From IMG/VR virus record IMGVR_UViG_2872185964_000010: a stretch of DNA of 45,487 nucleotides; one strand, written 5' to 3'. Positions 32,901 through 35,900 of the stretch are shown in pieces. This DNA comes from a virus (lineage: Duplodnaviria; Heunggongvirae; Uroviricota; Caudoviricetes). Position numbers: made by a program. Position 1 is the stretch's first letter, and each line of letters begins with the position of its first letter.

Positions 32901-35900
32901 CCAGCATTCTTTTCACCTGTCTGTCGTCTTCCCACACACCCGCGTGGGTCAGGGCGTCAAACAGCGCCTTGTTATAGTTGTCCAGATCGCGGATCCGGTT
33001 ATCCGGAGGAAACAACACGATCTCCACTGAAGCAGGTGCCGACGTTGGTTTTGGCAGACGACGTAACTGCTCAACTATTGCTGCGCACGCCGCGCTCTGA
33101 AATTTTCGCCCCGCCGCGCTTATCAGGCTCTTACCAGCAAATGCCCCTTTGTTGGGGTGTCGCCAGTAGGTGTTCACGCTGGGCGGGAAAGGCAGGATCA
33201 GCTTCATACTTTCAGGCCTCTCTCATGTAACCAGTGAGTTGCACGCAGTCTTGCGTTTTCCTCACCGGCAAGCAGTGAGCGGATAATCCCGACCGCCTCG
33301 CTGTCGTCGTCCTTCACCGCGGTATGAAGCGTGATCCCCCGGGCCACACCACGCTTTATCGTGATGACGCCTTTTTTCTCCAGTGCGCGAAGATGCTCCA
33401 CCGCTGCATTCACCGAACGGTATCCCAGCATGGTTGCCACCTCCTGATTGGTTGGCGGGAAGCCACGCTCTTTCTGATAAGAAATCAGCATATCCAGCAC
33501 CTGCTGCTGGCATTGAGTTAACGTCGTCATGCCGCCATCTCCCTGACCAGCTTTTCCGCCTGCAGGCGAACCTGCGCCAGAAACGCCTCACCACATGCCT
33601 CAAGTTCATCGCGCCCGATATAGCTGATTGCCGGTCCCTTCCAGGTCTTGTCGAAAACAGCAATAGCACCAGCGAAGAAAGCGCCTGTCGGCACCTGCTT
33701 CTCATCCTTCGGGATAAACCAGGCAGGCAGTTCAAAACCAATACGCCCGCGAATAAAAGCAATATGATCTGCATCTTCCGGCCACCACACTTCGCTGGTG
33801 GCAGCTTTGATCAGGAAAACATAGCGCCCGCCCTTATCACGCATGGCACTGGCATGCTTCATGATGTAACGCATGCCGGTGATGTATTGCCCCTCATGCT
33901 GACTGGCGCGGCTGTATGGGGATTTCCAAAGGCAGCACCTTTAAGCTCCGCAAGGCGTTCTGACCAGTCATGCGCCAGCGCGTTGTCTTCCGCCGTGTAA
34001 TACGCAGCGCATTTGGCGTTATCACCGTCAGTGAACAGATCCAGAACAAACGGACCAAACAGGGTGTTAATTCCCCAGAAAATGTTGTCCGGCGTGCGCC
34101 ACTGATCGCCCACTTCCTTCAGTTCATGGGCTGGTTTGTTCCGCAGTTCCACCAGCTCCTGGCAATATTTATTACTCATTAAGCCCCCACGTAATTCCCT
34201 GACAGATACCACTCATCACCCGATACAGCGCGCTTGCTGCTTTTCCGTAAACACTGCTCACGACGCGCCAGAAAATTGTTTCGTTCTGGCTGGGAGTGGC
34301 TTTCACGGAATGCCGCCATCCACACCGTTGCAGCACGACGGTATAAGCCCTGGACTCCAGTTCTTCAGCCTGGCGGGTCAGGCATAAAATCTCCCGCGGG
34401 TCGTTAGTGCCGACATAGAAATTGCGCACAGGTCTGGTTTCACGAACTGGTTGCCGTTCCGCCTCCGGCGATATCTTTATCTGGCGCGGAAAATGTCTGC
34501 GTGTATCCCCTTCACAACGGTGAGCCACACGCCCACTCTGACGTAACTTGCTTGCTGACTGCAGAACGCGCTGCCGTGAGTAACCTGCAAAAGCATCCGC
34601 AATGTCTCCGGAAGTACACCCCGGATGGGCTTCAATGAATTTCTGAACTTCATTCAAAAGACTCATGATCACCCCCTGAATCCTGCCGGGATCTGGCTGT
34701 AGTCCACGTTGTCGTAACTGGCTTTGAAGTACGGGTCCTCACGTCTGGCTGCAGATACCGCAGGAACTTCCCAGGATTCTTCGAAATGACGATCCGGACC
34801 AAAGAACGTGACAGCCTGTTTCACAAATTGTGTGCCGCTGTTACCCATCGCAGATACCCAGCCCGCATAGCGTTTCACACCTTCCAGCATGGTTTCGGGG
34901 TTTACCCCCTCATTCAAACGGGCTTTCCAGACTTTGAAAGCTGCAGATTTTGAATTGCCACCAGTACGTTTGGGATATGCCAGCCATGCCTGCTCAAACT
35001 CCGGAGAGTATTCCGGTCGGTTTGAACGAACTCGCACAGACTCATCAGCAGATGCACCAACAGCTATTGGTTCATTGACTGGTTCTTTGACTGGTTCAAA
35101 AGAGTGACTGGTTCTGGGTGAATCTCCTGCACTACCCCTAGTGCAACTCCTGCACTACCTGGTGAATTTGCTGCACCAGATAGTGAATTATTTGCACTAC
35201 CCCTAGTGAATCTCCTGCACCATCCAGATGAAGGAGATAGATATTACTTGAGTTACCTTTTTCACCTTTCCGGGTGACTTTTTTTACCAGCCCAGACTCA
35301 CAAAGGGCCGCAATATGATTCATCACAGAACGTTTGCTAATCTCGCACTGGTCAGCAATATGCTGGTAGCTGGGCCAGCACTCACCCTGATCGCTGGCAT
35401 TATCAGCCAGCTTGATCAGAACCAGTTTTCGCAATGGATTACCCACTCGAATTTTCATCGCTTTAACCATCAGCTCCATACTCATGCTGCACCTCCGAGA
35501 TGCTTCATGTTTTTTCCGGAGCGAAAGGCTATAAGCGGCATACTGACGCGGTAATTACGGCCCAGCGGTTCACAAATCACCTTCTGACATTCACGGTCAA
35601 CCAGGCTGACACGTAGAACATGCCCTGCTGGCGTGGTGTACCACTGCCCAACTGTGGGTGTTGATATTTTTTTACGCTGAAATAAACGGTAAATGTTGAG
35701 GAGCAACGGATTAAGCATGACGATGCCCTCCGCTGATATTCAGGAGACGGTGAATATGAAAATTAGCCTTATCCGCCAGACGAATACGTTCAGCTTGCAA
35801 GTTAAGAAGGGTTTCTACCAGAACCTGATGTGCCTGCGGATCCGAAAGAGTTACCTTGCGCAGAGCACGTAGTGCAGTTGTTACATAACTGAGTTTATGT

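What the first reader, a model, noticed from the sequence alone, without database searches (positions are those of the whole stretch)
35060..35230. Tandem iterons inside the putative replication initiator gene
Five tandem 21-23-bp repeats of GTGAATCTCCTGCACTACC-like sequence, preceded by three GACTGGTTC repeats, lie between the HTH-containing 5' ORF and the 3' ORF of the initiator region. This is the lambda arrangement, where ori iterons sit inside gene O. The two ORFs may be one gene split by an error in the repeats.
Basis: seen in the sequence. Interest (0 to 1): 0.45.

Follow-up and report, generated by a model that had tools for sequence, protein, structure and literature searches.

The report
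Phage replication origin inside initiator gene
The repeats are real and are almost certainly the binding sites (iterons) of this phage's replication origin, sitting inside its own initiator gene as in phage lambda; the apparent split of the gene into two ORFs is most likely a sequencing error.

Summary
Observation confirmed. Five 19-bp units (TRGTGCA-N5-TKCACYA; cores at 35118-35220) lie 21-23 bp apart, next to three GAACCAGTCA copies (35076-35114). The core occurs nowhere else in the window (expected 0.33).

Both ORFs are one gene (34669-35485, minus strand). It corresponds to SfV orf39, mEp460 gp43 and cdtI gp46, the 'Eru6'-type initiator. Two 1-bp losses in G5 runs between iterons split it. 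About 24 similar C/G-homopolymer deletions are scattered through the window, and the G4 form has no match in IMG/VR, whereas the G5 form has at least 120. The split is therefore most likely an artefact.

Selection acts on the DNA, not on the peptide:
- In four lineages sharing the same recognition helix, synonymous codons are 100% identical in the iterons and about 50% in the flanks.
- The iteron arms are invariant while the spacers vary.
- Relatives with a different recognition helix carry different repeats at the same position, often dyad-symmetric.
- Some intact relatives read copies of one iteron in two reading frames.

The GAACCAGTCA block is conserved at synonymous sites (95% against 37%) in phages of E. 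coli, Vibrio, Klebsiella, Pectobacterium and Aggregatibacter. I propose it is the origin core or unwinding site.

This is a lambda-like origin in a non-lambda-O initiator family (HTH_36/DnaD_N). It is a new member of a known kind, of modest interest.

The parts
34669..35485 (-). Replication initiator gene. As given it is broken into two ORFs (35138-35485 and 34669-35037); homologues have a single ORF of 272 aa.
   Evidence: It is 98-99% identical to SfV orf39, mEp460 gp43 and cdtI gp46. PHROG 270 'replication initiation protein', E=1.7e-88.
35222..35485 (-). N-terminal winged-helix DNA-binding domain (codons 1-88). The putative recognition helix is EISKRSVMNHIAAL.
   Evidence: Pfam HTH_36, E=3.4e-12, and DnaD_N, E=3.3e-6. 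Alignment of relatives.
35116..35222 (-). Array of five iterons. The cores GTGCA-N5-TKCAC lie at 35206-35220, 35183-35197, 35162-35176, 35141-35155 and 35118-35132 (gene order). Each is a 19-bp imperfect palindrome, TRGTGCA-N5-TKCACYA.
   Evidence: Synonymous codon identity is 178/178 in four lineages, against about 50% in the flanks.
35200..35203 (.). C4 run (G4 on the coding strand) where homologues have five bases. This is the first frameshifting 1-bp deletion, in the linker between iterons 1 and 2.
   Evidence: The G4 form has 0 matches in IMG/VR and the G5 form at least 120.
35135..35138 (.). C4 run where homologues have five bases. This is the second 1-bp deletion, in the linker between iterons 4 and 5. 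The premature TAG of the 5' ORF lies at 35138-35140.
35069..35115 (-). Conserved block AGAACCAGTCACTCTTTTGAACCAGTCAAAGAACCAGTCAATGAACC, encoding RTSHSFEPVKEPVNEP. It holds three GAACCAGTCA copies (35105-35114, 35088-35097, 35076-35085). Proposed to be the origin core, unwinding site or helicase-loading site.
   Evidence: Codon identity given the same residue is 187/197 (95%), against 37% in the N-domain. The exact 25-mer is found with many iteron types in at least 120 viral contigs. It is among the least stable 40-mers of the gene.
34669..35037 (-). C-terminal domain of the initiator, presumed to recruit the helicase or primosome. It has no Pfam or PDB relative.
   Evidence: PHROG hits to C-terminal parts of 'replication initiation protein' and 'DnaD-like helicase loader' families. 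Pfam and PDB searches were negative. The AF2 model was poor.

Best explanation
The region is the phage's origin of replication, embedded in the coding sequence of its own initiator.

The initiator has an N-terminal winged-helix domain (HTH_36/DnaD_N type), a flexible linker and a C-terminal domain. I infer that dimers of the N-domain bind the five dyad-symmetric 19-bp iterons (TRGTGCA-N5-TKCACYA), which are spaced about two helical turns apart in the DNA that encodes the linker.

The adjacent block of GAACCAGTCA repeats abuts the last iteron at a fixed distance and is conserved across the whole family. It is proposed to be where the duplex is opened and the helicase is loaded through the C-terminal domain. 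This phage type carries no dnaC-, dnaB- or P-like gene of its own, so it would use the host DnaB/DnaC.

The split of the gene in this window comes from two 1-bp losses in G5 runs between iterons. These are most likely base-calling errors, so the real phage carries one intact 272-aa gene.

Shown here: the repeats, their dyad symmetry, DNA-level purifying selection, covariation with the recognition helix, and the one-gene status in homologues. Inferred: protein binding, unwinding at the block, and origin activity.
For: - Repeats are real and unique to this site.
- Homologues have one ORF of 272 or 294 aa. The window differs by two G5->G4 deletions, among about 24 C/G-homopolymer deletions across the window that also break dam, PerC, rha/ash and tail genes. 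The G4 form is absent from IMG/VR and the G5 form is present at least 120 times. The top 25 listed matches among E. coli complete genomes (99.4% identity) all span 953 bp, against 951 bp in the window.
- DNA-level selection: in four lineages with 70-75% protein identity and the same recognition helix, codons are identical at 178/178 same-residue positions in the iterons, against 197/397 in the N-domain and 215/417 in the C-domain. The arms are almost invariant in 24 sites (left arm 23/24; right arm varying only T/G at one position), changes fall in the 5-nt spacer and the linkers, and the 24/21/21/24 spacing is invariant.
- Eight relatives with different recognition helices carry different 21-24-bp tandem repeats at the same position in the gene. 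Six of nine unit types have a significant internal dyad.
- In intact relatives, copies of one iteron are read in two reading frames (Klebsiella L010, L025, L033, L045, two Vibrio phages). This excludes a purely peptide-level repeat.
- Of 75 non-redundant IMG/VR loci with the block, 71 have a 21-25-bp (or doubled) tandem repeat directly upstream, with 46 distinct consensus units.
- Block: 95% codon identity given the same residue, against 37% in the N-domain, with a maximum of 48% in any 13-codon window. It lies in a low-stability segment next to the iterons.
- Known precedent: origins of lambda and Stx phages lie in the middle of gene O, with 4-6 iterons plus an AT-rich tract (PMC7466680). P22 and L gene 18 also carry internal repeats (PMC8022706).
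Against: - There is no experimental evidence for binding or origin activity in this family. PMC8951638 states that nothing is known about replication proteins of Eru-type phages.
- The segment next to the iterons is only mildly AT-rich (about 40% GC against about 50%). It ranks third, not first, for instability in the SfV-type gene.
- No DnaA-box or IHF consensus, and no promoter-like site, was found in the region.
- Three iteron types (S1249, VibD68, EH2085) lack clear dyad symmetry.
- Gene variants with only one or two units exist (242 and 250 aa). Either few iterons suffice or those prophages are defective.
- The sequencing-error reading is inferred from the pattern of deletions. I have no reads.
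Confidence: 0.8

Rival explanations
1. The repeats are only a by-product of a repetitive, low-complexity peptide linker (GSAGDSLG-like units) that arose by slippage. They have no cis-acting DNA function.
For: In the intact SfV-type gene the periods are 24/21/21/24, so all copies are in frame and encode a Gly/Ser/Ala/Pro-rich linker. Copy number varies in frame among isolates, with 1, 2, 5, 8 and 9 units.
Against: Synonymous sites are 100% conserved in the iterons and about 50% in the flanks, while the peptide itself changes at spacer positions. Each unit has internal dyad symmetry. In relatives, copies of the same DNA unit are read in different frames and give unrelated peptides. The repeat sequence tracks the recognition helix.
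Confidence: 0.04
2. The repeats are binding sites for the initiator or another regulator, but they serve control rather than initiation: autoregulation, copy-number 'handcuffing' or exclusion of related phages. The true origin lies elsewhere in the genome.
For: Iterons of plasmids have such control roles (established knowledge). Next to the array there is no strongly AT-rich tract and no DnaA or IHF site.
Against: [quoted passage not shown] No other comparable repeat array lies in the early region of the window. The block stays linked to the iterons in every relative examined.
Confidence: 0.1
3. The frameshifts are real. This is a decaying prophage whose initiator has been inactivated at slippage-prone G runs in the repeats, so the two ORFs are genuine remnants.
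For: Homopolymers are natural slippage hot spots. Natural relatives show compensated +/-1 shifts at the same linkers (L025). Prophage remnants carrying this gene are common in E. coli (matches in 2707 of 5426 genomes).
Against: About 24 deletions, almost all in C4-C6 or G5 runs, are spread over otherwise 96-99% conserved genes, including essential tail genes. Four fall within 2.5 kb here. There are few other disabling changes. The G4 form has no match in 2.9 million viral contigs. A systematic bias towards G/C homopolymers is typical of consensus errors in long-read assemblies (my own knowledge).
Confidence: 0.1

Closest known systems
Phage lambda ori-lambda within gene O, and the 6-iteron origins of Stx phages 933W and P27
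   Same: - The origin lies in the middle of the initiator gene, in DNA encoding the inter-domain linker.
- It has tandem ~19-bp dyad-symmetric iterons about two helical turns apart, next to an easily melted segment.
- Iteron number varies between phages and changes the length of the protein (PMC7466680).
   Different: - The initiator is not a Pfam Phage_rep_O member; it is HTH_36/DnaD_N.
- The iteron sequence is unrelated.
- The flanking segment is a sequence-conserved GAACCAGTCA repeat block, not a plain AT-rich tract.
- No P-like loader gene follows; PerC and dam follow instead.
P22 gene 18 and phage L gene 18 internal repeat origins
   Same: An ori-binding protein with its own specific repeats inside its coding region. 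The specificity differs between related phages (PMC8022706).
   Different: Those phages encode a DnaB-type helicase (gp12) next to the initiator. Phage L's repeats are 11-mers. The protein families differ.
'Eru6' replication region of Stx phages (Stx2a_WGPS2, AP012537), SfV orf39, mEp460 gp43 and cdtI gp46
   Same: Same gene, 98-99% identical in DNA, with the same neighbours: rha/ash, a small ORF, then PerC and dam (PMC8951638).
   Different: The published description covers the HTH_36 protein only. That paper mentions no origin or iterons and says the replication proteins of Eru phages are unstudied. cdtI has 8 iterons and the window has 5.
Iteron plasmids (Rep winged-helix initiators such as RepE, pi and TrfA, with a DUE made of repeated 13-mers)
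   Same: A winged-helix initiator, directly repeated ~20-bp sites, and a repeat-containing unwinding element that some Reps bind as single-stranded DNA (established knowledge; review PMC4980987).
   Different: Plasmid iterons lie outside the rep coding sequence and usually act together with DnaA boxes. No Rep_3-type Pfam hit was found here, and no DnaA box.

Membership tests
Lambda-type phage origin (ori embedded in the initiator gene) | Three or more tandem ~19-22-bp direct repeats spaced about two helical turns apart | tested here: met
   Five units spaced 23/21/21/23 in the window, and 24/21/21/24 in intact homologues.
Lambda-type phage origin (ori embedded in the initiator gene) | Repeats lie inside the initiator ORF, in the linker between the DNA-binding domain and the C-terminal domain | tested here: met
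   Codons 89-125 of a 272-aa protein, directly after the HTH_36 domain.
Lambda-type phage origin (ori embedded in the initiator gene) | Each iteron has internal dyad symmetry (a dimer binding site) | tested here: met
   TRGTGCA-N5-TKCACYA; the arms are almost invariant in 24 sites. Six of nine iteron types in the family have a significant dyad.
Lambda-type phage origin (ori embedded in the initiator gene) | Adjacent AT-rich DNA-unwinding region | tested here: inconclusive
   The flank is about 40% GC against about 50% locally. It is among the 3-4 least stable 40-mers in most family members, but it is not a classical AT tract.
Lambda-type phage origin (ori embedded in the initiator gene) | Iteron specificity matches the initiator's N-terminal domain | tested here: met
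   The same recognition helix goes with identical arms in four diverged lineages. Different helices go with different repeats. This is covariation only, not binding.
Lambda-type phage origin (ori embedded in the initiator gene) | The initiator binds the iterons and the fragment supports replication | not testable with these tools
   Needs EMSA or footprinting and an origin-cloning assay.
Lambda O protein family (Pfam Phage_rep_O, PF04492) | Significant match to the Phage_rep_O profile | tested here: not met
   Pfam hits are HTH_36, DnaD_N and generic winged-helix families. There is no Phage_rep_O hit at E<=0.01.
HTH_36 'O-like' phage replication initiators (PHROG 270; Eru6 type) | N-terminal HTH_36 domain and a full-length match to the family profile | tested here: met
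   HTH_36, 46.4 bits against a cut-off of 25. PHROG 270, E=1.7e-88 over residues 3-271. 98.5% DNA identity to the Eru6 reference AP012537.
Iteron-plasmid Rep proteins (Rep_3 and similar) | Match to plasmid Rep profiles, with iterons outside the gene and DnaA boxes | tested here: not met
   No such Pfam or NCBIfam hit. The iterons are intragenic. No DnaA-box consensus was found.

The most novel reading that the evidence does not exclude
The GAACCAGTCA block (AGAACCAGTCACTCTTTTGAACCAGTCAATGAACC) is a family-wide, sequence-specific origin core written into coding DNA. It would be the site where this class of initiators melts the duplex or loads the helicase, perhaps by binding one strand as plasmid Reps bind their DUE repeats.

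It is kept nearly base-for-base identical in phages of Enterobacteriaceae, Vibrio and Pasteurellaceae, while the iterons beside it and the C-terminal domains after it are freely exchanged. On this reading it would also be the recombination joint at which cassettes of N-domain plus iterons are shuffled onto different helicase-recruiting domains.
Probability: 0.4. Interest if true: 0.5.

Novelty: new member of a known kind. Interest (0 to 1): 0.3.

Why it matters
This initiator type is common. It gives a match covering at least 80% of the query in 883 of 5426 complete E. coli genomes. It occurs in SfV, in cdtI and in 'Eru6' Shiga-toxin phages, whose replication is described in the literature as unstudied.

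Locating the origin and its binding-site logo gives a direct handle for experiments on the replication of these toxin-carrying phages, and so on toxin gene dosage after induction.

The family is also a clean natural example of DNA that serves both as binding sites and as coding sequence, with some copies of a site read in two frames. Its invariant 35-bp block is a concrete candidate for the unwinding or loading site.

For annotation, the practical message is that the two ORFs, and several other split genes in this window, should be treated as homopolymer artefacts.

Tried and rejected
- Literature: no held paper describes iterons in SfV orf39 or in the Eru6 initiator. The original SfV genome paper is not in the library, so I cannot exclude that it noted the repeats.
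- Eru2A (PMC8044961) looked like a match because it is 273 aa. It is a different protein: a Phage_rep_O type followed by a DnaB helicase.
- C-terminal domain: Pfam, NCBIfam and PDB sequence and profile searches found nothing. The AlphaFold model was poor (pLDDT 54). Foldseek against the PDB gave only noise, with E>4. I draw no fold-based conclusion.
- A generic 9-pair palindrome scan did not separate iterons from background, because the 5-nt spacers are not symmetric. I replaced it with an arm-and-spacer test.
- DnaA-box, IHF-site and sigma-70 promoter scans of 34500-35800 were negative.
- The imperfect palindromes just past the block occur at about the number expected by chance. They are not claimed as a feature.

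Full report
**1. The observation**

The sequence at 35060-35230 is as described. Tandem Repeats Finder reports a 23-bp-period array at 35118-35220 (4.7 copies, score 94) and a 12-bp array at 35068-35098. The repeat finder gives five copies at 35114-35222 with start-to-start spacing 23/21/21/23, and three copies of TGACTGGTTCT at 35076-35115. On the coding (minus) strand the core is GTGCA-N5-TKCAC. It occurs at five sites in the whole 45.5-kb window, all of them here, against 0.33 expected from dinucleotide shuffles. Exact GAACCAGTCA occurs three times, only at 35076-35114.

**2. One gene, not two**

The genes here run on the minus strand.
- The 5' ORF (35138-35485, 115 aa) has an HTH_36 domain (E=3.4e-12) and a DnaD_N match.
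- The 3' ORF (34669-35037, 122 aa) has no Pfam match.

The stretch is 98-99% identical to many lambdoid phages. In those the region is a single 'replication protein' ORF: SfV orf39 and mEp460 gp43 (272 aa), and cdtI gp46 (294 aa).

An alignment shows that the window lacks one G in each of two GGGGG runs lying between iterons. On the plus strand these are the C4 runs at 35135-35138 and 35200-35203. cdtI has three extra repeat units (+66 bp).

**3. Why the split is probably an artefact**

- Against the whole cdtI genome, the window (96-99% identical, opposite orientation) shows about 24 single-base deletions, almost all in C4-C6 or G5 runs, spread through tail and early genes.
- Against mEp460, five homopolymer deletions fall within 2.5 kb. 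They break dam (33919), the PerC-family gene (34347) and the initiator (twice); another, at 36404, splits the rha/ash gene.
- The top 25 listed matches among E. coli complete genomes (99.4% identity) all span 953 bp, where the window has 951 bp.
- A 31-mer with the window's G4 linker has no match in 2.9 million IMG/VR contigs.
- I have no reads, so a real private mutation cannot be excluded. The pattern is that of a systematic homopolymer miscall.

**4. The repeats are DNA elements, not just a peptide repeat**

In the intact gene the periods are 24/21/21/24. The units are therefore in frame and encode a Gly/Ser/Ala-rich linker, GAGDSLGG SANNSLS GAANSPG SAGVAPGG SAGDSP. That made a 'peptide repeat' reading a serious rival. 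Four results argue against it.

(a) I recovered the DNA of three relatives at 70-75% protein identity that share the same putative recognition helix: Raoultella L017, Citrobacter L018 and a metagenome contig L019. At positions with the same residue, codons are identical as follows:

| Region | Identical codons |
|---|---|
| Iteron region | 178/178 |
| N-domain | 197/397 |
| C-domain | 215/417 |

(b) A logo of 24 sites gives T-R-G-T-G-C-A N5 T-K-C-A-C-Y-A. The left arm is kept in 23 of 24 sites and the right arm varies only between T and G at one position; variation is otherwise confined to the 5-nt spacer and the inter-iteron linkers. Changes there are non-synonymous, so the peptide is not what is conserved. 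The spacing is invariant. Each unit is a 19-bp imperfect palindrome, as expected for a dimer binding site.

(c) Eight more distant relatives have different residues in the putative recognition helix. They are two further E. coli Stx phages, three Vibrio phages, and Klebsiella, Pectobacterium and Aggregatibacter phages. All carry 3-7 tandem repeats of 21-24 bp at the same place in the gene, each with a different sequence. Six of nine unit types have a significant internal dyad, for example GGTGAC-N5-GTCACC, GGGCAG-N3-CTGCCC and CTGTGC-N9-GCACAG.

(d) In several intact genes, copies of one DNA unit are read in different frames. In Klebsiella phage ST13-OXA48phi12.5 the unit TATGCCA... encodes PMPSDGT in three copies and VCHEIAP in one, with spacings of 23/22/24. 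L025 reads GTGCAGGAGATTCAC as part of GVVQEIHQG, next to copies read as GAAYSP and SAGAAP. L033, L045 and two Vibrio phages behave the same way.

Copy number is also polymorphic in the SfV type: 1, 2, 5, 8 and 9 units, giving 242, 250, 272, 294 and 302 aa. The 5-unit form is much the commonest, with 2852 member sequences.

**5. The GACTGGTTC (GAACCAGTCA) repeats**

This part belongs to a block, AGAACCAGTCACTCTTTTGAACCAGTCAA(T/A)GAACC, which encodes RTSHSFEPV(N/K)EP. It follows the last iteron at a fixed distance in every relative examined.

Among seven divergent phages chosen by protein similarity, codons at same-residue positions are identical in 187/197 cases (95%) in the block. The figure is 428/1145 (37%) in the N-domain, and no 13-codon window of the N-domain exceeds 48%.

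The exact 25-mer occurs in at least 120 IMG/VR contigs, together with more than 20 recognition-helix variants, many linker types and several unrelated C-terminal domains. In 71 of 75 non-redundant cases a 21-25-bp (or doubled) tandem repeat lies directly upstream, with 46 distinct consensus units.

The block is therefore the constant part of the locus, while the iterons and C-domains vary. It lies in one of the least stable 40-mers of the gene in most members, ranked first in four and third in the SfV type. It is only mildly AT-rich. No DnaA-box, IHF or promoter consensus is present.

**6. Mechanism proposed**

By analogy with lambda, the origin lies in the middle of the initiator gene, and iterons plus an adjacent easily opened tract form the minimal unit for unwinding (PMC7466680). 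P22 and L gene 18 show the same pattern (PMC8022706). I propose three steps:
- Dimers of the N-terminal winged-helix domain bind the five iterons.
- The resulting complex destabilises the adjoining block.
- The C-terminal domain brings in the helicase.

Closely related initiators in Klebsiella, Raoultella, Citrobacter, phiP27 and Eru7 phages are followed by dnaC-like and dnaB-like genes and have a different C-terminal tail. The SfV/cdtI/window type is followed by PerC and dam. It would therefore have to use the host DnaB/DnaC. Binding, unwinding and origin activity are inferences; none could be tested here.

**7. Comparison with what is known**

- The architecture is that of ori-lambda, but the protein is not a Phage_rep_O member.
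- It belongs to PHROG 270 and HTH_36. Its replication region corresponds to the 'Eru6' type of Stx phages. The authors of that classification report only an HTH_36 protein and state that the replication proteins of Eru phages are not known (PMC8951638).
- I found no paper in the held library that describes these iterons. The original SfV paper was not available.

**8. Verdict**

It is a new member of a well-known kind, so a specialist would not be surprised. The added value is threefold: the binding-site logo; the evidence for double use of the sequence as sites and as codons, including frame-switched copies; and the family-wide conserved block, which is a testable candidate for the origin core. 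The C-terminal domain remains uncharacterised: profile searches were negative, and the AlphaFold model was too poor for fold comparison.

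Noticed in passing
window-wide, e.g. 8355, 9295, 10061, 12245, 14186, 14478, 18670, 19026, 21196, 21811, 33919-33922, 34347, 36404-36410: About 24 single-base deletions relative to phage cdtI or mEp460, almost all in C4-C6 or G5 homopolymers. They split dam (33527-34212), the PerC-family gene (34172-34672), the rha/ash gene and several tail genes. The pattern is that of systematic base-calling error, so ORF calls across this window are unreliable.
   Followed up: partly
L010 (Klebsiella phage ST13-OXA48phi12.5) gene nt 282-375; L025, L033, L045; L009; L008: In intact initiator genes of relatives, successive copies of the same iteron DNA are read in different reading frames (for example PMPSDGT against VCHEIAP). 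The repeat spacings are 22-25 bp, not multiples of three.
   Followed up: yes
L017, L018, L019, L014, L015 compared with window 33500-34672: The extreme C-terminal tail of the initiator covaries with the gene content downstream. Relatives followed by dnaC-like and dnaB-like genes end in ...GGGR...DYG...W/F tails. The SfV/cdtI/window type ends in ...DYSQIPAGFRG and is followed by PerC and dam, with no loader or helicase gene.
   Followed up: partly
P0042 (242 aa), P0028 (250 aa), P0016 (272 aa), P0003 (294 aa), P0001 (302 aa): Iteron copy number is polymorphic among E. coli and Shigella prophages, with 1, 2, 5, 8 or 9 units. It changes in in-frame steps, mostly of 66 bp (three units).
   Followed up: partly
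window 35055-35072: An imperfect palindrome, CACCAACAGCTATTGGTT, lies just beyond the conserved block. Palindromes at a similar position occur in F403/EH2085 and in Vibrio phages D290 and 252E42.2. This recalls the palindrome beside lambda's AT-rich tract, but the number found is within chance expectation.
   Followed up: partly
window 38147-38188: A 20-bp tandem repeat (AATGTACCTAAAAGAAACAT, 2.1 copies) lies just downstream of the cI-like repressor gene (37428-38102, plus strand). It may be operator-like sites.
   Followed up: no
window 34195-34588 compared with L004 (cdtI): The window carries the PerC-family (yfdN-like) gene between the initiator and dam, as in mEp460 and SfV. This stretch of the window has no match in cdtI, where dam follows the initiator gene almost directly.
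   Followed up: partly
E. coli genome search with window 34600-35550: This initiator region matches 2707 of 5426 complete E. coli genomes; 883 have a match covering at least 80% of the query. Many of the partial matches may be prophage remnants. I recall from memory, without checking, that K-12 CPS-53 yfdO/yfdN is such a remnant.
   Followed up: no
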